Source: Octopus sinensis | Taxonomy: Eukaryota | NCBI RefSeq assembly: GCF_006345805.1 | Contig: NC_043013.1 | Location: forward strand, 49,910,001-49,974,000 | Direction: 5' to 3' | Length of the DNA stretch: 64,000 bases | Part shown: positions 1,861-56,600 of the stretch, piece after piece | How positions within the stretch are numbered: the first letter of the stretch is position 1 | Layout of the letters: every line of letters starts with the position of its first letter | Program-made: the position numbers and the translations under genes | The notes under the pieces: model-generated | Databases searched by the model: none | The model's input: only the letters and a program-made list of their open reading frames with translations | What the model was told of the DNA's origin: nothing

Positions 1861-2029
1861 TCTGGTCAGTTTCAGTCTAGCAGATTGGTGTCTTTGTTGC
1901 CTAATAGTTCAGTCAAATCAATTCCTTTAGATCTGTGTTGTTGGGTTTTCAGTTTCTCTGCTGTGGCTACATCTTGTTTTTGTTGTGTAGTCCTGCATCG
2001 CTCTATTCCAGTAGCATACTGTTGACCTG

Positions 2030-2643
2030 CCTCCGTGCCAGTGGCACGTAAAACGCACCATCCGATCGTGGCCGTTGCCAGCCTCGCCTGGCCTCCGTGC
2101 CAGTGGCACATCAAAAGCACCATCCGATCGTGGCCGTTGCCAGCCTCGCCTGGCCCCCATGCCAGTGGCATGTAAAAAGCACCATCCGATCGTGGCCGTT
2201 GCCAGCCTCGCCTGGCCCCCGTGCCAGTGGCATGTAAAAAGCACCATCCGATCGTGGCCGTTGCCAGCCTCGCCTGGCCCCCGTGCCAGTGGCATGTAAA
2301 AAGCACCATCCGATCGTGGCCGTTGCCAGCCTCGCCTGGCCTCCGTGCCAGTGGCATGTAAAAAGCACCATCCGATCATGGCCGATGCCAGCTCCGCCTT
2401 GACTGGCTTCCGTGCCGGTGGCACGTAAAATGCACCATCCGATCGTGGCTGTTTGCTAGCCTCGTCTGGCACGTAAAAGGCACCCACTACACTCACGGAG
2501 TGGTTGGCGTTAGGAAGAGCATCCAGCCGTAGAAACACTGCCAGATCAGACTGGGCCTGGTGCAGCCTTCTGGCTTCCCAGACCCCAGTTGAACTGTCCA
2601 ACCCATGCCAGCATGGAAAGCGGACGTTAAATGATGATGATGA
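2030..2643 (+). mobile_element. RTE-LINE 3' end copy with internal 62-bp minisatellite
   Basis: Matches 3' UTR of the LINE at 57040-57399; (GAT)n tail; about 6 tandem 62-bp units at 2035, 2097, 2159, 2221, 2283, 2345. Confidence 0.85.
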
Positions 2644-6500: not shown

Positions 6501-7012
6501 TCATCATCATCATCATCATCATCGTTTAGCGTCCGCTTTCCATGCTAGCATGGGTTGGACGGTTCGACCGGAGTCTGGGAAGCCAGAAGGCTGCACCAGG
6601 CCCAGTCTGATCTGGCAATGTTTCTACGGCTGGATGCCCTTCCTAATGCCAACCACCCCGTGAGTGTAGTGGGTGCTTTTTACGTGCCACCAGCACAGGT
6701 GCCAGGCGGGGGCAGGCAAACGGCCACGATCGGATGGTGCTTTTTACGTGCCACCGGCACAGGGGCCAGGCGGGGCAGGCATGCTATGATCGGATGGTGC
6801 TCTTTACATGCCACCGGCACGAGGCCAGTCAGGGCGGCGCTGGCAACGGCCACGTTCGGATGGTTCTCTTACGTACCACCAGCACTGGTATCACAGCTGC
6901 AATTTCCATTGATGTTGATCGATTTCGATTCTCACTTGCCTCAACAGGTCTTCACAAGTAGAGTTTTGTGTCCCAAGAAGGAAAGGTGTGCATAAGTGGA
7001 CTGGCTACATCC
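6501..7012 (-). mobile_element. RTE-LINE 3' end copy
   Basis: (CAT)n tail, CCATGCTAGCATGG hairpin, GTGCCACC repeat units. Confidence 0.85.
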
Positions 7013-11235: not shown

Positions 11236-11772
11236 TCACATGACATAAATGAAGTTTCTAGTGCTCTTCCACCAACATGTTCACATGGTGGAACTGATGA
11301 TGTTGGTAGTGCTCCTTCATTATATTCACATGGAGGGGTTAATGTTTCTAGTCCTTCTCCACTAGGAGTTGATGTTTGTATTACTCCTCAAATAACCTAT
11401 TCACATGGAGGAGGTGATGTTTCTGGTGCTCTTCCACCATGTTCACATGGTGGAACTGATGATGTTGGTAGTGCTCCTTCATTATATTCACATGGAGGGG
11501 TTAATGTTTCTAGTCCTTCTCCACTAGGAGTTGATGTTTGTATACTCCTCAAATAACCTATTCACATGGAGGAGGTGATTTTCTGGTGCTCTTCCACCAT
11601 GTTCACATGGTGGAACTGATGATGTTGGTATGCTCCTTCATTATATTCACATGGAGGGGTTAATGTTTCTAGTCCTTCTCCACTAGGAGTTGATGTTTGT
11701 ATTACTCCTCAAATAACCTATTCACATGGAGGAGGTGATGTCTCTGGTGCTCTTCCACCAACATGTTCACAT
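11236..11772. repeat. Tandem repeat, 162-bp unit x about 3, built of 45/75/42-bp TCACATGG subunits
   Basis: Unit starts at 11281, 11443, 11603. Confidence 0.9.
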
Positions 11773-14594: not shown

Positions 14595-15090
14595 TCATCA
14601 TCATCGTCATTTAGCGTCCGTTTTCCATGCTAGCATGGGTTGGACGGTTCAACTGGGGTCTGTGAAGCCAGAAGGCTGCATCAGGCCCAGTCTGATCTGG
14701 CAGTGTTTCTACGGCTGGATGCCCTTCCTAACGCCAACCACTCCACGAGTCTAGTGGGTGCTTTTTACGTGCCACCCGCACAGGTGCGAGACGGAGCTGG
14801 CAAACGGCCAGGAACGGATGGTGCTTTTATGTGCTACCGGCACGGGGGCCAGGCGAGGCTGGCAACGGCCACGAATGGATGGTGCATTTTACGTGCCAAC
14901 GGCCACGAACGGATGGTGCTTTTTACGTGCCAACGGCCATGAACGGATGGTGCTTTTTACGTGCCACCGGCACGGAGGCCAGTCGGGGCGGCGCTGGCAA
15001 CGGCCACAATCGGATGGTTCGCTTACTTGTCACCGGCACTGGTATCACAGCCGCAATTTCCATTGATGTTGATCGACTTCGATTTTGGTT
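14595..15090 (-). mobile_element. RTE-LINE 3' end copy
   Basis: (CAT)n tail, family sequence with variable repeat units. Confidence 0.85.
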
Positions 15091-30101: not shown

Positions 30102-30311
30102 CCCTTTCATTACTGTATTTATTTTGAGATGCTCTGTGTTTCTTACAATTACTTTAAATGTAACAAAGAATTTAGTAAAATAATTTAGTTATAATTAAGC
30201 TGATGTTAGGAACATAAATTGCGACCAAGGTTTGGTGGAAGATTTTAATTCAAAACTTATGAAAACAAGACATTAGTACTCAGAGCCAGAGCCGGGCTGG
30301 TAATGAAAGGG
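30102..30311. mobile_element. piggyBac-type MITE
   Basis: TCAA|CCCTTTC...GAAAGGG|TTAA; reverse copy of 5747. Confidence 0.82.
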
Positions 30312-30633
30312 TTAAATGTATACCAATGAGATTAGTAACTTCCACAGAGTATAACCATCCCATGGTTATATCAAAATTATTACATTTATTGTTGCATATC
30401 CATAATTTATTATAATACTGAATTGTTCTTCTAGCAGTTAGGATAATATCAACTTCATTTCTACATTAATTTTTAATTTTTACTGCAAAAATTAAAGCTT
30501 TGTTAAAAAGAAAAGGATTAATTAAATAATAGTGGTTACATATATCTATTTGTAAAAATTTAGTGTTTCTTACCTATTTTAGTAAATCAATCTATTACGT
30601 CAGAAGAATCTGACCATTAAGTTTTATTTTAGA

Positions 30634-38110: not shown

Positions 38111-39019
38111 TTGATTGTTTATTATAGTGGCACATAGCAAATACTATATGACAGAGAAGTCAGCAAATAACAACTTTTCTCCAAAGATTTCCTGAAGAAA
38201 GGGTTCTAACTCAGAAGTACGGACATACTAAGTAAAACTATCGACCAGTTTTATTGTATAACTTGCATTGTTTATGCTTTAAAAAAAAACTATTACCAAA
38301 AACATATATACAATGCTTCATGAAAAGTATATGCATATATATAAACTCATATATAAACTCAGGCACCTATACAATCATATGTGTGTATATATAGAAATAT
38401 ATAAACTCACACACATACACTATCATATGTGTGTATATATATAGAGAAATATATAAACATACAATCATATCATCATCATTTAACGCCCCTGTTCTCTACT
38501 GGCATCGGTTGGATGGTTTCACAGGATCGGAAAGGGGCCAAGGACTGCATTGTACTCCAGTGTTTGCTATGGCATTGTTTCTATGGCCCCTCCTAATTCC
38601 AACCTCCTTACAACATATATACTGTGTGTATTTCCAGTGCCAACAGCATGATCAAGGTCGCGATGCAGCTTGCAAGACGACAAACTTTAAGAGATTAGGA
38701 TTAGCTTATGCTAAGGGATGAAGGATTAAAGCATAAGAGAGAGTGCAGAACAGGTTCTTGTAGTAAAAGCAGCATGGTTACTCATATTTAGTTGGGGAGG
38801 GATAATCAATAGGGTCTGCAAAGAGGTACAGAGTATGGATGTGTCCAGGTGCGATGAGTAGGATTGGTAGGGAGCAGCAAGAGTGTATGGGGAGTAGGAT
38901 ATGTAGCACCAAGTGCCACATATTATACCAGGTTCTAAATAATACCAGTGTAGCAAAACGGCAGTGCCACAGCACTCGGCTGAAACTACAAAAAGGGAAA
39001 CAAAATGTATATATGTGTG

Positions 39020-39070
<51 letters not shown>

Positions 39071-39114
39071 TATATATATGTAAATGTAATATGTGACAAT
39101 TATTTGGTAGCCAT

Positions 39115-39175
39115 GACAAAACTCCGAGTTTCGGATGCCAAGGTGGAAATCCACATTGCCATCTCTTCAGTTATT
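39115..39175 (-). ncRNA. Type I hammerhead ribozyme motif
   Basis: AATAA-CTGAAGA-stem II-GAAA-CTCGGAG-TT-TTGTC. Confidence 0.7.
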
Positions 39176-39427
39176 CGGCCATCGGAAAAAATGCTATGAA
39201 AAATGACCGTTATACAAAGGGAAATTACTATGTTAATGACCGCTATTTAGACAAAAGAGCTATTTGAATGACCGCTAAGTGAGGGGAGGGGGTAAAAAGG
39301 CTCGTATTCACATAAGCGCGCATGTTCATGCCTACATGTGTGCCCGCACACCCACATGCATGCGCCTAAAAGTAGACACTCATCCACCCTCACTTGAAAT
39401 GTACACAACCTTACCCGCACCATTCGC

Positions 39428-39477
<50 letters not shown>

Positions 39478-39661
39478 AAATAAGAAAATGGAGGAATAGA
39501 TTTCTTTCAATCATCAACTTCCAGATAATACCAGTTCATATTATTTATTAACTAATTATTTATATTAAATAGGAACATCCAAATCCAACAGAATAATACA
39601 TAATAAAACAATATACATCAATAAGTAAGATAATACCATAAGGATAATACATATAAAATGG

Positions 39662-39784
39662 ATCTTACAGCTGTTTCAGCCCATAGATAAGAGTATATGC
39701 CCATATTAGTCAGATGTATTGAGGTAATATACAGTATAAAAATGAGTTACTTATATATATATATCTCAAGGCCTCGTCAGAGAT
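39662..39784 (-). ncRNA. Type I hammerhead ribozyme motif with long stem II
   Basis: ATCT-CTGACGA-GGCC...GGCT-GAAA-CAGCTG-TA-AGAT; intact core, GUA site. Confidence 0.75.
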
Positions 39785-39958
39785 TATATACAAATCCACG
39801 CACACACGCGTACCAAAAAAGTTTCATACGCATGTCTATATATGCACAAACACAAGAAAACACAGGGCTAAAGGTAACAATACAGAAAAAGGTTAAACCA
39901 CATGTTTGTGCATATATAGACATGTGTATGAAACCTTTTTGGTGTGCGTGCGTGGGTT

Positions 39959-40002
<44 letters not shown>

Positions 40003-40004
<2 letters not shown>

Positions 40005-40230
40005 GGCGGCGAGCTGGCAGAAACGTTAGCACGCCTGGCGAAATGCGTAGCCGTATTTCGTCTGTCGTTACGTTCTGAGTTCAAATTCCGCCGAGGTCGA
40101 CTTTGCCTTTCATCCTTTCGGGGTCGATAAATCAAGTACCAGTTACGCACTGGGGTCGATGTAATCGACTAAATCCCTTTGTCTGTCCCTGTTTGTCCCC
40201 TCTGTGTTTAGCCCCTTGTGGGTAGTAAAG

Positions 40231-40234
<4 letters not shown>
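40003..40234 (+). mobile_element. SINE family A
   Basis: Full copy in a (TA)n tract. Confidence 0.92.
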
Positions 40235-40273
<39 letters not shown>

Positions 40274-40551
40274 ATATTTGGCAAATGGTGTGGGTGAGGT
40301 TGTGTATGTTTCAAGTGAGGGTGGATGAGTGTATACTTTTAGGCGCATGCATGTGGGTGTGTGGACGCACATGTGTAGGTATGAACATGCGCGTTTACAC
40401 GAATACTATGAGCCTTTTTACCCGCTTATTTTTACTCCCTCCCCTCACTTAGCGGTCATTCAAATACCTCTTTTGTCTTAATAACGGTCAATCACACAGT
40501 AATTTCCCTTTATTTAACGGTCATTTTTCATAACTCTTTTTCCGATGGCCG

Positions 40552-40612
40552 GATAACTGAAGAGATGGCAACGTGGATTTCCACCTCGGCATCCGAAACT
40601 CTGAGTTTTATC
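40552..40612 (+). ncRNA. Type I hammerhead ribozyme motif
   Basis: GATAA-CTGAAGA-GATG...CATCC-GAAA-CTCTGAG-TT-TTATC; 5-bp stem I, GUU site. Confidence 0.75.
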
Positions 40613-40741
40613 ATGGCTACCAAATAATTGTCACATATTAAATTTACAGATAAATTCCTCTATTTACATAATATCAAGGTCTCTTTCATTCTTTTGTTGT
40701 CTTACCATTTTTATCAATATATATATAGATATATATATATC

Positions 40742-41699: not shown

Positions 41700-44276
41700 T
41701 AGGAGAGGAAAAAATAATAAGGCAGAATGCTAAATTGAAAGTAAATTTTAATAAAAATGGGTGTTTGAAAAAATTAAAAAGAAATCAAACTGGCTTTCAC
41801 TGCAAGGCAAATTTTCAAGATTTGGTAAGGGAAAAAATTTTTTTAAATTGAGGAAGAGAAAAAAAAGAAATTTACAATGTTTTTTTTTTCAAAAAAATAA
41901 TAAATATATACAAAAATTAATAAATAAGTATACCAATACACGCTTTTAGAGTTCAATATTAGTCCATGGAAAGACTTCTTTGGAGGATTAGGATGCAAGC
42001 GTTTAAGTGTAGTGTTTTGTTTGAAAAGGTTGGATGTTTATGTGTCAAAACAGGAAATGGAGTTATCCAGTTCCTGTAAATAAGGGGACACAATTCTGTG
42101 GATTTTATACTCTTTAATTGGAATGCTGGATTTTTTGTCAAACATGATGCTTATATCTATTTTTTGTCAGACAGGATGCTAGAAAAAGGAATACGGTCAC
42201 CATGGAGTATGCATATTAAGAAGCGTTTGGAATTTTTCAATAAAAATATTCTCCTTGTTGATTCTTTCTTGTGTAGAGATTCTGTCTTTACATTGGTAGA
42301 AAGGGAATATATGAAATTTGGGATTTTTATTTCTAGCGCAAGAGTCTATGTGGCTACTGAGTGGAATTTGACGGTATTGTGGGAGAATTATCTGTTCTTT
42401 ATGGACTGCTACTCTTCTGCATAAAGGAAGGCTCGGTTGTCCAATATAATTGTGCTGGCAGCCGGCGCATGTAAGAATGTAAATGAGGTTCTTGGAGGAA
42501 CAAGAGAAGTTGGTCTTGATTTTAAACTTTGTTCCCTGTTTGAAAGTAAATTCAGAGCCTTCAAGTAGGAAGAGGCAGGTACCATAGTTAGGGCATGCAC
42601 ATTTTTTAACTGGTGGGGGTGGATGTGGTGTGTGAAGTTTGGCATTTGTTAAGAGTTTTTTTCAATGATTTATGTTACCTTTTGCATTTAAGGATTTTAT
42701 GTGTATTGATAATATTATTCATTTTTGGGTCTGTGGACAGTAAGGGGAGGTTTTGTATGATTGTGGTATATGCTTCGATGTTGTTGGGGTTGTGGGTGGA
42801 AATGTATGGAAGTATTTTGAGGTTGGGTGTGTTACTGTGTTGGGTAGTTTTCAGTGTATTATTGTCGAGTTCCTTGGCACGTTTTATTCCATAGTGTGGA
42901 GGGATATTGGCGTTGTAATAGTGTTTTTTTGAGGTCTTGAAGGCATATTTCTCAAGTTTTTGGATCTGAGACAATGGTGCAAATCCTTTTAGCTAAGTTG
43001 AAAGGGATATTTATCTTGGTGTGTTTTGGGTGGCATGAACTAAAGAGGAGGTATTGTTGTGATTCTGTAGGTTTGTGGTAGATGTCTGTTATGATTTGGT
43101 TGTTAGGTGTTTTTATAATTAGGAAATCAAGAAAAGGGAGATGATGTTTGCTGAATTCCATAGTGAGTTGAATGTTGGAATTCCAGAAGATTTTCCATAA
43201 GATTATTTCCATATGATGAAACAATCATCTAGGTATCTTTTCCAGTTTTCCATTAAGTAGATGTGGAAAAGGTGTCCAAAATTCTGGCATGATGTCTCAT
43301 AAAGTGATAGTTCGAAGAAACCCATTATGAGGTCTACAAGGACTGGTGCAGCTTTGGTACCCATCGCGATCCCACATTTTTGATGGTAGTGTGTGTTTTC
43401 AAAGAGGAAGTAATTGTTTGTCAGAATGAACTTGAGTGATTCCGTAATGAAGGTCTTGTTAATGCGGTTAGGAAATGCTTCTGGGTGTTTCCCCAGCCAG
43501 AAATCAATTGCCTCAATACCATATTCATGTGGGATGTTGGTATAGAGGTTAATAACATCAAAGGACACCAAGAATGCCTCCTTGTTGGTTGCTTTCGGGA
43601 GGTGCTTGAGTATGTCAAGATCATCTCTAATGAAACTTATGATGTGACTAAGGAAAGGTTTCAAAAGGATGTCCAGGCAATTGCTCAAGCGGTGTATTTT
43701 GCAGAAGGTGCCAGCTATGATGGGCCTTCGTTTTAGGTCCTCCAGTGCCTTGATGTTGGTGTGAATGTCAGAGGAGATTTTGCAGGCTTCAGTGATGGAT
43801 TTGTTTTTATGGACTTTAGGGAGGCTATAGAAGAGGCTGGGCTTGCATTTGAAATTGGTGATGTAATCCTTTTCCTTTTCCGTGAGCCCTTGACCATGTT
43901 GGAGTATGAGAGTGGTGATGTTTTTGAGTGTTTGTGACACATAAACATCCAACCTTTTCAAACAAAACACTACACTTAAACGCATGCATCCTAATCCTCC
44001 AAAGAAGTCTTTCCATGGACTAATATTGAACTCTAAAAGCATGTATTGGTATACTTATTTATAAATTTTTGTATATATTTATTATTTTTTTGAAAAAAAC
44101 ATTGTAAATTTCTTTTTTCCCCTTCCTCAATTTAAAAAAAAATGTTTTCCCTGCCAAATCTTGAAAATTTGGCTTGCAATGAAAGTCAGTTTGATTTCTT
44201 TTAAAAATTTTTCATACACCCGTTTTTATTAAAATTCACTTTGAATTTAGCATTCTGCCTTATCATTTTTTCCTCT

Positions 44277-48769: not shown

Positions 48770-50075
48770 TGTGGGATGCTATGTTGAGGGAAATTCATGT
48801 CCAAAGCTGCAAAAAATTTTCTGGAAATGCTTGTAGCTATTTGAACCTCAAAAAACGATGTGAACCAAGCAATGGTTAAGTTAAGAATTATGTCCCTTGG
48901 TAGCAAAAACACCACCACTGGGGGTGTTGCAAGTTAGCAAAAGTTTTCTGGAAGAGTTTATGGGAAATGTATCTTTAAGATTGTTGCTCTTGTAGAAATG
49001 GAATGTTTGTAGTGGTACGATATGTATAGTGATTCCAGTGGGAGGGAGGGCTCCAAAGATTGCATAAACATCTGTGTTTGCTAGCGTGTTTTCTTTCTTT
49101 TATTTTTTGATAAAATTCTTGGGGTATTTATGTATACATGTGGTGTATGGGGATTTATAGTGATAGTAGTGGAAAATGGTCTATTGGGTGGATATCCGCT
49201 GTGTCAGGGCATGTGTGTTTACTCTTTCACTTGTTTCAGTCATTTGACTGCAGCCATGCTGGAGCACCACCTTTAATCGAGCAACTCAACCACGGGACTA
49301 ATTCTTTGTAAGCCTAGTACTTATTCTATCGGTCTATTTTGCTGAACCGCTAAGTGACGGGGACATAAACACACCAGCATCGGTTGTCAAGCAATACTAG
49401 GGGGACAAACACAGACACACATGCACATATATATATATATATATATATACGACGCGCTTCTTTCAGTTTCCATCTACCAAATCCACTCACAAGGCTTTGG
49501 TCGGCCCGGGACTATAGTAGAAGACACTTGCCCAAGGTGCCACGCAGTGGGACTGAACCCGGAACCATATGGCTGTTAAGCAAGCTACTTACCACACAGC
49601 CACTCCTGGGCCTGTTTGTGTATGTTCTGGTCAAACACTTCGCTGGATTCTCAGGTATTGGTGTGAGGAAGGTTGAAGCTGGAGGACCGGTGATTATAGT
49701 CATGATGGAGCATGCAGGTATGGTAGGAGGTACTTCCCTCATATGGGAAAGGGTTAAAAATTTCACTTCTACTGTTCAGGCAGATGCGTGAGTGTTGGGA
49801 ACTCTTTAAAATTGCTCTTTTCTCAGCTAGACATAATCTGCACTTCTTGCTGCTATTGAAGTATGCTTTATATTTTTCTAGAATCTTACAATTTTATGCT
49901 GTACTCATTGGTACTTTCAATAACCATATGTACTTGGCCAGGGTTGTGGCATTGTCTTTTTGGGATGTTGAAGGACTTGTGGTTGTTAAAGCAGGTTCTG
50001 AAAGGGCCTTCAGGCGCTCCCATATACTTTCACACATTTGTTTGCTCATTTGCTGTTACCTCTGTCTTCTATATA
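48770..50075 (-). mobile_element. Penelope-like relic, different family (GIY-YIG at about 49730-50070)
   Basis: KVYMGAPEGPFRTCFNNHKSF...LAKYIW...KCRLCLAEK...LNSRSEI; linker-like AWFTSFF..ISRKFFAALDMNFP at about 48790-48880. Confidence 0.75.
49218..49611 (-). mobile_element. SINE family B
   Basis: Full reverse copy. Confidence 0.9.
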
Positions 50076-50533: not shown

Positions 50534-50823
50534 TCATCATCATCATCATCATTTAACGTCCACTTTCCATGCTAGCATGGGTTGGACGGTTCAATTGGGG
50601 TCTGGGGAGCCCGAAAGCTGCACCAGTCCAGTCAGATCTGGCAGTGTTTCTACAGCTGGATGCCCTTCCTAACGCCAACCACTCCGAGAGTGTAGTGGGT
50701 GATTTTATGTGCCACCGACACAGGTGCCAGACGAGGCTGGCAAACGGCCACGCTCGGATGGTGTTTTTATGTGCCACCGACACAGGTGCCAGATGAGGCT
50801 GGCAAACGGCCACGATCGGATGG
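50531..50823 (-). mobile_element. RTE-LINE 3' end copy
   Basis: (CAT)n tail and family sequence. Confidence 0.85.
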
Positions 50824-51411
50824 TATATATATATATATATATATATGTACATATATAACCCCGATGACAAATTCTACAACATGATGAGGATTTACCCCAC
50901 AAACTCAGTAGAAATGGTAATTGTTTATTGTATTTGGTTCCCAAGATTCTTTATGTGAATTCATGTGGCAAAACAAATTTTTTTTGTGTCATGGGAGGGT
51001 CGTTACACCAATAATAACACACACACACACTGATTCAATTCCACTCCTTTATTATTAGTCAATTGGATAAATATCTATCCAACTAACTAATCAATTGTTT
51101 GTTTAACTTGTTGGTTAAATAGTCAATCATTTTCTTCAATTTTTTTATTTTGCTCATCAGAGTGTTTTCGTTGCTATCCATAACCTTTCCTGTGACTTAT
51201 CTTCTAATTCACTCCAAAGGCCAAATTCGTCTGTCTGAGACATTATTGTTTGTATGTGTAGTTTAGGTGAGGAGGTAAGGGTGAGTATAACGAATGGGTT
51301 TGTGAGAGTGTGTGTGACTGTTCAAGTGCCCCTTAACCTGGCCAGTTTGCAGGGTTGATACTATAACTAATTATAAACTGCCCTACTTCTCACAGGTATT
51401 ACAACCACTCA

Positions 51412-53530: not shown

Positions 53531-53659
53531 GTGTCATAATGCGATCAGAAATACCTTTGGGTAGAGAAAGAAAGGATCTGACTATTTCTGTTTTGATGGC
53601 AAAACCAACACCAGAGTAGCATGGCTTGTCTTCATTTCTTCTACACCAGAAAAATATAC

Positions 53660-56600
53660 ACTGAAAGGTATGTCTGGCGAGATAGTCGAGATGCTTGAAT
53701 GGAGATGTGTTGATGTATGTTGCATGCAAGAAATAAGGTGGAGAGGAGGATCTGCTAGGTTCCTCACAGGCAAGGAACACAGGTACAAGATTTTCTGGGC
53801 AGGGAACACTGACAGGGTTGGTGGCGTGGGTATACTTATCGCTGAGAAATGGGTAGATAAAGTAATTGAGGTAATCAGAGTAAGTGACAGAATACTTAAG
53901 ATTAGAATAGTGCTTCATCATAGATTAGCAACCATTATATCGGCCTATGCCCCTCAGCCAGGGCTACCCGATGGACAGAAAGACAGTTTCTATGACACCC
54001 TACTGCTGACCACCTCATTGACGAACGACAGGGACCTTCTCTTTGTGGCTGGTGACTTCAATGGGCATGTTGGACGACATGCTGGGGGCTTCCATGGCAT
54101 ACATGGAGGCTACAGTTATGGTTCCCGCAACGAGGAGGGAACCAGGCTGCTGGAGTTCTGTGATGCGAATAGTCTTATGGTTTGCAACACTAACTTCAGG
54201 AAACCGACAAGCCACCTGGTCACCTACCGATCGGGCTGGCATACTAGCCAAATCGACTACATCGTTGCCAGAAAAAGGGAAAGATGGCTGCTTATAAATG
54301 CCAAAACCTTCCCAGATGAAGAATGCACCCCACAACATAGACTGGTAGTTAGTGACTTTAGGATCAGGACTAAGAGGGCGACTAGAAGACGACCAACATG
54401 GAGAAGAAGGGTCTGGAAGCTTAAAGACCCTGCGAATGGACAGAGATTTAGAGACATGTTACTTGAAGCCTTTGACGAAATGGAAGGGGGTATAGCTACA
54501 CATGGGGTAGAAGACAACTGGACGCTTCTGAGGGACAACCTGCTGAAAGCCACTGACCAGATCTGTGGCTGGTGCAAAGTCCCCTTAAGACCCAAAATAA
54601 CGTGTGGTGGAACAATATTGTTGACAGGGCTATTAGACAAAAGAAACAGGCTTGGAAGGACTGGAAGAACGGTGGTAGCAGGGAAGTGTATCAGACTGCC
54701 AGAAGGGAAGCTAGGAGACGGGTCTATCTAGCCAGAGGCGAAGCAGATAAGAAAAAATTTGCCAATGTTTTGCGCCATGAGGATGAAAGACTTGAGGTAT
54801 TTCGTGTTGCAAGACAGTGTGTGAGAGAGAATCGTGACGTGGTAGGAAAGAAATGTGTTCGCAAGGATGATGGTTCACTTGCGCTAAATGAGGATGCAAA
54901 GAGAGAGGCTTGGAGACGCCACTATGAAAGGTTGCTGAATGAGGAAAATGAATGGGATAAAGAGAGTCTGCCAAATGTCGACCCAACAGAGAGACCAGCA
55001 ATCTGAGTTAACAGTTCCACGGATTTTTGTCAGTGAACAGGTCGCGGATTTTAGCGCCGAAAAATATTTTGACAAATTAAACTTAAATGTTGAAGTGAAT
55101 CGAACGGCTTTTGTGTGTTTATTAAATGGCTTATAAACACCTTCCACGCTACAATTGTTTTCGTTTCAGCACACGATCTCAGATCAAATTACTTGCTATG
55201 CGAGTACATTTCCGTAGTTCCTTAGTAGTTAAGGCAATTAAAAGCATGAAAACAGGCAAAGCCCCAGGCCCATCAGGAATTACTGCAGAGATGCTCAAAA
55301 TATCTGGTAGTGTCGGCTATAGCCTAGTCACCCGTATAGTTAACCAGGTGATACACGAAGGAGTCATACCCAATGACTGGTGTAGCAGCATACTAGTCAA
55401 CTGCTACAAAGGTAAAGGAGACACCCTAGATACAAATAATTACAGAGGTATCAAGCTGTTGGATCAGGTAATGAAGGTTACAGAGAGGGTCATAGCCCAA
55501 CTGATTAGGGAGAGAGTCAACTTGGACGAGATGCAGTTTGGTTTCATGCCAGGGAAAAGCACCACTGATGCCATATTTCTGGTGAGACAGCTGCAGGAGA
55601 AATACCTAGCCAAAGATAAGCCCCTGTACCTGGCTTTCGTTGACATGGAGAAAGCCTTTGACAGGGTCCCTAGATCCCTTATCTGGTGGTCAATGAGAAA
55701 ACTAGGGATAGATGAATGGCTGGTGAGGGCTGTGCAAGCCATGTACAGAGATGCTGTAAGTAAGGTTAGGGTTGGCAACATGTACACAGAAGAATTCAAA
55801 GTAGAGGTTGGGGTCCACCAGGGTTCAGTACTCAGCCCCCTCCTATTTATCATAGTCCTCCTGGCAATTACGGAGGAATTCAAGACAGGTTGCCCCTGGG
55901 AGCTCCTATATGCTGACGACCTTGCTCTAATTGCTGAGTCACTATCAGAACTGGAGGAGAAGTTCCAGGTGTGGAAGGAGGGTCTAGAATCGAGGGGCCT
56001 TAGAGTCAGCCTAGCAAAAACCAAAGTAGTAATAAGTAGGAAGGTAGACAATCCACAAATGTCTTCAGGAAGATGGCCCTGCTCGATCTGTAGAAAAGGT
56101 GTAGGTAGAAACTCTATAAGATGTACCCAGTGTAAGCTATGGACACATAAGAGGTGTAGCAATGTCAAAGGAAGGCTAACTGGGAAGATAGATTTTGTAT
56201 GTGGCAGATGCTCGGGAGCATTAACCTCTGAAAATCTGCAGAAAACAACTTCCGTCACTTTCCAGGGGGAAAAACTAGAAGTAGTTGATAGCTTCCGCTA
56301 TCTTGGTGACCAAGTCAGTAGTGGGGGTGGGTGTGCTGAAAGTGTAACGGCTAGAGTAAGAATAGCCTGGGCAAAGTTTAGGGAGCTCTTACCTCTGCTG
56401 GTGACTAAAGGCCTCTCGCTCAGAGTAAAAGGCAGACTGTATGATGCATGTGTACGAACAGCCATGCTACATGGCAGTGAAACATGGGCTGTGACTGCTG
56501 AGGACATGCATAAGCTCGCGAGAAATGAAGCCAGTATGCTCCGATGGATGTGTAATGTCAGTGTGCATGCTTGACAGAGCGTTAGTACCCTGAGAGAAAT

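What the first reader, a model, noticed from the sequence alone, without database searches (positions are those of the whole stretch)
39079..40648. Nested 1.57-kb structure holding three hammerhead folds
Seen: 350-370 bp inverted arms each have an HHR near the outer end, pointing outward (40552-40612 plus, 39115-39175 minus; stem II includes hairpin GTGGA/TCCAC). The (TA)n centre holds an unrelated HHR element (39480-39960) and a SINE. Inference: non-coding inverted pseudo-LTR dimer whose central (TA)n is a landing site for further elements. Caveat: one extra nucleotide at the base of stem II.
Basis: partly seen in the sequence, partly recalled or inferred. Interest (0 to 1): 0.7.

Follow-up and report, generated by a model that had tools for sequence, protein, structure and literature searches.

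The report
Nested Penelope-like retrotransposon ends
This is an ordinary, old jumping-gene insertion: two back-to-back truncated ends of a Penelope-like retrotransposon, each with its usual hammerhead motif (predicted, not shown, to cut), into which a second such element and a SINE likely landed later; the one useful extra is that such back-to-back pairs almost always combine one short and one long end.

Summary
The three hammerhead motifs and the inverted arms are real, but the boundaries and the reading need correcting. The arms are 5'-truncated 3' ends of an abundant protein-coding Penelope-like element (PLE) of the Hydra clade. Other copies carry the reverse transcriptase–GIY-YIG ORF upstream, with all published Hydra motifs. 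The unit is 39080-40716, not 39079-40648: the right copy keeps a 69-nt tail, the left stops at the family's short end. The two copies meet at about 39903. There is no single (TA)n centre: each copy has its own internal (TA)n. The left run took a second Hydra-like PLE end (39476-39788, third hammerhead), the right run a SINE. Inverted 5'-truncated copies, one-sided tails and (TA)n targeting are published for PLEs, including one Hydra family. The extra stem-II nucleotide is family-wide. Cleavage is untested and the helices show no covariation. One useful extra: head-to-head pairs were one short plus one long end in 17 of 18 cases, which fits priming on both target strands from two start sites. 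The scan noted this same architecture before on another family in this genome (e1-8807173). Verdict: new member of a known kind, low interest.

The parts
39008..39079 (.). (TA)n target, left flank
39080..39430 (-). Left copy of family 1 (Hydra PLE): 3' part with pLTR, ending at the family's short 3' end (no tail)
   Evidence: in 17 of 27 copies found with an internal query the match stops at or just past this short end, before the tail
39115..39175 (-). Hammerhead 1, left; type I, GUU triplet, predicted cut after 39120
   Evidence: cleavage untested
39431..39475 (.). Internal (TA)n of the left copy's 3' UTR, split by the family-2 insertion (remainder TATATA at 39785-39790)
   Evidence: other copies have one TA-rich run between the last UTR sub-repeat and the arm
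39476..39788 (-). Nested 5'-truncated 3' end of a second Hydra-like PLE family (family 2), ending at that family's short end
   Evidence: 1593 first-look candidates; other copies extend both ways; endonuclease C-terminus upstream in L108 and L149
39662..39784 (-). Hammerhead 2; type I, canonical core, palindromic stem III, GUA triplet, ~90-nt loop 2, predicted cut after 39666
   Evidence: 28 motif matches in 29 family-2 loci; a relative at L161 changes two stem I pairs on both sides
39791..39903 (-). 5' part of the left copy: last 3'-UTR sub-repeat of family 1
   Evidence: aligns with the sequence upstream of the arm in L004, L009, L012, L019, L095
39900..39905 (.). Head-to-head junction of the two 5'-truncated copies (6-nt palindrome, 1-3 nt overlap)
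39903..39960 (+). 5' part of the right copy: end of the same UTR sub-repeat
39961..40001 (.). Internal (TA)n of the right copy, 5' half
40002..40232 (+). SINE-like repeat inserted in the right copy's internal (TA)n
   Evidence: 10 matches in the window; ARAGORN finds no tRNA gene; the SINE label is by abundance and recalled likeness, family not named by any search
40233..40277 (.). Internal (TA)n of the right copy, 3' half
40278..40647 (+). Right copy of family 1: 3' part with pLTR, to the short-end site
40552..40612 (+). Hammerhead 1, right; predicted cut after 40607; one unpaired pyrimidine at the base of stem II
40648..40716 (+). 69-nt PLE tail to the long 3' end; in tandem copies it reads on into the leader of the next ORF
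   Evidence: L181, L197
40717..40884 (.). (TA)n target, right flank

Best explanation
The 39080-40716 structure is two 5'-truncated 3' ends of a protein-coding Hydra-clade Penelope-like retrotransposon joined head to head at about 39903, likely made in one insertion event, with a second Hydra-like PLE end and a SINE likely inserted afterwards into the (TA)n that each copy carries in its 3' UTR. Shown: family membership, the link to the ORF, two fixed 3' ends, the junction, and (TA)n on both flanks. Inferred mechanism: the element's GIY-YIG endonuclease nicks both strands of a (TA)n run, which reads the same on both strands. Reverse transcription is primed on one strand at the short start site and on the other at the long start site of the element's RNA. 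Both cDNAs stop early and are joined through 1-3 nt of microhomology. The internal (TA)n then offers a new target to other TA-seeking elements. The hammerheads are passengers inherited with the pLTR; at this decayed locus they most likely do nothing.
For: Endonuclease ORF, UTR sub-repeats, arm and tail lie in order on one strand in many loci. L095 has the window's architecture with 357 codons of ORF left in the middle. L181 is pLTR-ORF-UTR-pLTR. The sibling subfamily's 717-aa ORF (L091; 82% identical to L095's over 314 aa) has RWK, DKT, CxCX5C and CxxC..E..N..CxH, the Hydra features in PMC8557442 section 11. It is colinear by eye with the published Hydra-1_Obim protein (26 of 29 residues identical in one block). 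Head-to-head pairs in 96 loci: 17 long+short, 1 long+other, 0 long+long, 0 short+short, after dropping L009 as an artefact. In the two sets not chosen for a long end it was 13 of 13, P about 5e-5 if ends were independent. The two arms share 7 minority substitutions against a mean of 1.7; 31 of 1035 other pairs reach 7. PMC8557442 describes the inverted truncated copy and one-sided tail and lists such a copy for Penelope-13_HM. PMC11167929 reports extension of both strands and two RT start sites in vitro for an anole PLE.
Against: Overall arm identity (89.5%) is no higher than between random copies (median 89.9%; 585 of 1035 pairs are as close), and 4 of the 7 shared changes are at CpG sites that mutate recurrently. 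No target-site duplication can be read inside (TA)n. 77 of 96 loci show no hammerhead-end pair within the DNA fetched, so inversion is optional. In vitro the anole PLE showed no difference in start site between the two strands, which does not predict a strict one-of-each rule. Some endonuclease-anchored loci were hand-picked for long ORFs or for visible opposite-strand hits, which selects for pairs though not for end type. No intact ORF of the exact long-UTR subfamily was seen.
Confidence: 0.88

Rival explanations
1. Two independent family-1 insertions landed in the same (TA)n in opposite orientation at different times.
For: Arm identity equals the family background. The family is very abundant and seeks TA runs. 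L120 shows two long ends tail to tail across one TA run.
Against: The two 5' ends abut directly at 39903 with no TA between them. The pair follows the long+short rule. Shared rare variants.
Confidence: 0.07
2. It is a non-autonomous, non-coding element (retrozyme-like or foldback) that moves as an inverted unit.
For: No ORF of the element is left at the locus; the longest ATG ORF is 110 aa and runs through TA repeats. Non-coding PLE derivatives with hammerheads are described (bioRxiv 10.64898/2026.07.22.740005, part 1 read).
Against: 5' truncation points and pair spans vary from about 560 to 2840 nt, so no fixed unit is copied. Most copies are solo. The same sequence is the 3' UTR of coding copies. 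There are no tandem same-strand hammerhead units here.
Confidence: 0.03
3. The inverted arms are an assembly fold-back artefact or a later inverted duplication by DNA repair.
For: PMC8557442 warns that such structures trouble assemblies. No reads were laid on the locus.
Against: The arms differ at about 10% of sites and by indels. The left arm stops exactly at the family's short end followed by (TA)n, which a fold-back would not produce.
Confidence: 0.02

Closest known systems
Hydra clade of Penelope-like elements, e.g. Hydra-1_Obim and Penelope-13_HM (PMC8557442; sections 6 and 11, passages, supplement part 2 and search passages)
   Same: [quoted passage not shown]
   Different: Neither family here is Hydra-1_Obim: its listed hammerhead and flanks differ. 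The 3' UTR is long (about 1.0-1.1 kb in family 1, about 2 kb or more in family 2) with sub-repeats and an internal (TA)n. Tails are 69 nt and about 170 nt rather than 30-40 nt. Family 1 has one extra pyrimidine on the 3' side of the stem II base, not seen by eye in the 26 listed rows.
PAc, Poseidon-clade PLE of the green anole (PMC11167929; passages and second part of the main text)
   Same: Two 3' ends that delimit a tail; AT-rich targets; both strands cut and extended; hammerhead in the pLTR.
   Different: Other clade. Its hammerhead overlaps the ORF start, whereas here the ORF starts about 100 nt after the tail. It showed no strand preference of start sites in vitro, whereas genomic pairs here are one-of-each.
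PLE hammerheads with unstable helix III (PMC4209133; passages)
   Same: Type I fold with a short palindromic stem III, proposed to work as tandem dimers, with low activity in vitro.
   Different: Here the two like motifs are on opposite strands, so no cis dimer can form at this locus.
Metazoan non-LTR retrozymes (bioRxiv 10.64898/2026.07.22.740005; part 1 of 5 read)
   Same: Non-coding stretch with type I hammerheads related to PLE pLTRs.
   Different: No tandem same-strand units; the sequence is the truncated end of a coding element.

Membership tests
Penelope-like element (EN+) | Single ORF with RT and C-terminal GIY-YIG endonuclease linked to this sequence | tested here: met
   L095 and L181 link the ORF to the long UTR and arm; full 717-aa ORF in sibling L091. 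Pfam gave no hit; Atlas neighbours carry GIY-YIG in 26-50% of members in several clusters. Domain calls rest on likeness to Hydra-1_Obim.
Penelope-like element (EN+) | pLTR from partial tandem arrangement, holding a hammerhead | tested here: met
   L181 and L197 have pLTR plus tail upstream of the ORF and the arm again downstream
Penelope-like element (EN+) | 5' truncation, inverted 5'-truncated copy, tail at one end only | tested here: met
   tail 69 nt rather than 30-40 nt
Hydra clade | RWK motif and DKT in place of DKG | tested here: met
   RMRWKAFF and SDKTKNLY in L091 and L197; DKT present and RWK decayed to RWN in L181 of the long-UTR subfamily
Hydra clade | CxCX5C linker; CxxC and CxH flanking the catalytic E and N; no CCHH | tested here: met
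   CSCRNKELC, CGLC..E..N..CPH in L091; CSCRDKNLC in L095; absence of CCHH judged by eye
Hydra clade | Insertion into (TA)n | tested here: met
   both flanks here; TA-rich run after the 3' end in nearly all of the 54 copies listed
Hydra clade | Grouping with Hydra RTs in a tree | not tested
   published proteins were seen only as cut supplement text and were not used in a computation
Hydra clade (family 2, central insert) | Hydra-type endonuclease upstream on the same strand | tested here: met
   L108 and L149 link the ORF end to the family-2 UTR; CNCRIKDNC and CxxC..E..N..CxH in L145. RT half not linked to the insert.
Type I hammerhead ribozyme | Core CUGANGA / GAAA / NUH with three helices | tested here: met
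   all three motifs; hammerhead 1 has one extra pyrimidine before GAAA and a 3-nt loop III; no Rfam match
Type I hammerhead ribozyme | Covariation in the helices | tested here: inconclusive
   94.3% of cells paired in 66 copies but covariation at shuffle level (126 of 500 shuffles as high; 1 pair with a double change). Family 2: one relative with two compensated stem I pairs.
Type I hammerhead ribozyme | Self-cleavage at the predicted site | not testable with these tools
   needs an in vitro assay
Non-LTR retrozyme | Two or more consecutive tandem units each with a hammerhead, no coding partner in cis | tested here: not met
   like motifs are inverted, and the family is coding

The most novel reading that the evidence does not exclude
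Every double-ended Hydra insertion uses both reverse-transcription start sites in a fixed way: one RT complex primes the short site on one strand of the (TA)n target and the long site on the other, from the same source RNA. This would explain PLE inverted copies and one-sided tails as a single step, and the element's own internal (TA)n would make each copy a landing pad for further Hydra elements.
Probability: 0.5. Interest if true: 0.5.

Novelty: new member of a known kind. Interest (0 to 1): 0.25.

Why it matters
The locus itself is decayed repeat DNA. It matters modestly as a worked example. It adds two Hydra-clade families that differ from the one listed for octopus in PMC8557442, and Pfam and Rfam both miss them. 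It also gives a count for an open point in PLE biology, how inverted copies and tails arise: the one-short-one-long rule is a sharp prediction for the in vitro system of PMC11167929. The family-wide stem II bulge and the U4C core in the ORF-intact sibling subfamily are cheap tests of whether Hydra hammerheads cut at all.

Tried and rejected
Rfam scan of the window: 0 matches. Folding z-scores not significant; the hammerhead fold is 5.4 kcal/mol (right) and 12.2 kcal/mol (left) above the minimum-energy fold. Covariation count on 66 copies: nothing above shuffles. Pfam and PDB sequence searches with the ORF: no real hit. ARAGORN on the SINE: none. Sequencing runs: no RNA holder listed; no reads were laid, so expression and assembly were not checked against reads. 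A motif-based end caller missed the sibling subfamily and was replaced by a BLAST-based one. In one search the L009 'pair' was dropped because its inverted hit is an AT-rich match beside the copy's own end. Duplicated loci (L018, L064, L065, L068, L129, L130) were left out of the counts, and one tail-less row (L002 inverted copy) was left out of alignment A2. Rejected: fixed foldback or MITE-like unit (spans vary); cis hammerhead dimer (opposite strands; the two same-strand motifs on the minus strand have different stem III palindromes); identity with Hydra-1_Obim (different hammerhead and flanks). Literature searches. None of the listings or passages I saw gave a count of long/short pairing, but only these four searches were run, and older PLE reviews and bioRxiv supplements were not read.

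Full report
Observation. The inverted arms are real and 89.5% identical over ungapped columns. Each holds a type I hammerhead motif pointing outward, at 40552-40612 (+) and 39115-39175 (-). Stem I has one bulge, stem II carries the GTGG/CCAC hairpin, stem III is short and palindromic, and the triplet is GUU. A third motif lies at 39662-39784 (-), with a canonical core, a GUA triplet and a loop 2 of about 90 nt. None reaches an Rfam threshold and none folds better than shuffles.

The arm family. A search of the own genome (2.7 Gb; probably an octopus, inferred from the closeness to Hydra-1_Obim and from an earlier scan note) with 40278-40716 gave 4740 first-look candidates. An internal query, not biased for the end, showed two 3' ends: in 17 of 27 copies the match stops at or just past the site equal to 40647, 9 run to 40716, and 1 stops between. 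The left arm stops at the short end (39080) and the right at the long end, each followed by (TA)n.

The centre. In other copies the arm is preceded by a TA-rich run and, before that, by imperfect sub-repeats. Window 39791-39903 (-) and 39903-39960 (+) both align with the last sub-repeat. The two copies therefore meet head to head at a 6-nt palindrome at 39900-39905, and each copy has its own internal (TA)n. The right run is split by a SINE-like repeat (40002-40232; 10 matches in the window). The left run is split by 39476-39788, a piece of a second family (1593 first-look candidates). All 29 other fetched copies of that family extend further upstream, and 11 of 29 read on into a longer tail.

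The coding partner. L004, L020 and L029 carry an endonuclease C-terminus upstream of the arm on the same strand; in L004 the stop lies 1025 nt before the long end. A protein search gave 14757 first-look candidates, and ORF, sub-repeats and arm lie in order in many of the fetched loci. L095 has the window's layout with 357 codons of ORF still in the middle. L181 is pLTR, frameshifted ORF, long UTR, pLTR; in L181 and L197 the tail reads on into the leader of the ORF. A sibling subfamily with a shorter UTR has an open 717-aa frame (L091), 82% identical to L095's over 314 aa. Pfam and PDB do not recognise it; Atlas neighbours include GIY-YIG clusters. It shows RWK, DKT, CxCX5C and CxxC..E..N..CxH, the features that PMC8557442 section 11 gives for the Hydra clade. 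It is colinear by eye with the published Hydra-1_Obim protein, 26 of 29 identical in one block. Family 2 also joins to a Hydra-type endonuclease end (L108, L149, L145).

Known architecture. PMC8557442 states that PLE insertions often have an inverted 5'-truncated copy directly at the 5' end and a tail at one end only (section 6), and that Hydra elements insert into (TA)n. Its supplement lists Penelope-13_HM with such an inverted copy and two opposed hammerheads. In that table 10 of 26 Hydra rows have U at the cut site and 5 of 26 have the same ACTC-N-GAGT stem III as the arms (my count by eye). The listed Hydra-1_Obim hammerhead matches neither family here.

One event or two. In 96 loci I found 19 head-to-head pairs and dropped one (L009) as an artefact. 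Of the other 18, 17 were long+short and 1 long+other; none was long+long or short+short. In the sets not chosen for a long end it was 13 of 13, P about 5e-5 with independent ends. Some of those loci were hand-picked for long ORFs or opposite-strand hits, which favours pairs but not an end type. The window's arms share 7 minority substitutions (mean 1.7; 31 of 1035 pairs reach 7), though 4 are at CpG sites and overall identity is at background. With the direct junction, this favours one event. PMC11167929 found that an anole PLE cuts and extends both strands and starts reverse transcription at two sites that delimit the tail, with no strand difference in vitro. The inference is priming at the short site on one strand and the long site on the other, early stops, and joining by microhomology. 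An earlier scan note (e1-8807173) reports the same one-arm-per-end pattern for another, non-coding family in this genome; I had the first pairs before reading it, ran the count after it, and did not check its family.

The hammerheads. The extra pyrimidine before GAAA is present in 59 of 66 copies (34 C, 25 T), so it is inherited. Helices are 94.3% paired but covariation is at shuffle level, as expected for neutrally decaying copies, so this is no evidence of selection. One family-2 relative changes two stem I pairs on both sides. The sibling subfamily reads C at core position 4 (23 of 66 copies); PMC3088659 notes that U4C lowers activity in vitro (passage). PMC4209133 reports low activity for metazoan PLE hammerheads, needing same-strand dimers (passages), and the anole motif cut only with protein and was not needed for insertion. 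At this locus the like motifs are on opposite strands, and a read-through RNA is predicted to form 328 arm-arm pairs. Cleavage here is untested and unlikely to matter.

Verdict. Real features, ordinary origin: nested, decayed ends of two Hydra-clade PLE families and a SINE. New member of a known kind, interest 0.25. The pairing rule is the only point worth a follow-up.

Noticed in passing
L091-L105 and other sibling-subfamily loci: The sibling subfamily, which holds the longest open ORFs, has C instead of U at hammerhead core position 4 (23 of 66 aligned copies) and keeps the stem II bulge.
   Followed up: partly
L035, L039, L049, L054, downstream of the family-2 match: Family 2 has a tail of about 170 nt beyond its short end, far longer than the 30-40 nt described for PLEs; its hammerhead keeps a loop 2 of about 90 nt.
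   Followed up: partly
window 42200-44054 (-): Broken ORFs that look like another PLE (RT piece plus GIY-YIG with a cysteine linker; Neptune-like by recalled motifs), 1.5 kb from the finding.
   Followed up: no
window 49741-50059 (-) and 30301-30570 (-): Decayed Hydra-type ORF remnants (tblastn with the L091 protein).
   Followed up: no
window 2029-2470, 6672-6885, 14757-14982, 50698-50824: Dispersed arrays of one GC-rich 62-64-bp repeat.
   Followed up: no
window 11250-11760: 162-bp unit, 3.2 copies, 96% matches; the period is a multiple of three.
   Followed up: no
window 53565-56571 (+): LINE-like endonuclease (388 aa) and RT (482 aa) frames, labelled from recalled motifs.
   Followed up: no
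L120:1756-1800; L002:533-620: L120 has two long ends tail to tail across one TA run. L002's inverted copy stops inside stem III, 2-3 nt before the predicted cut site.
   Followed up: no
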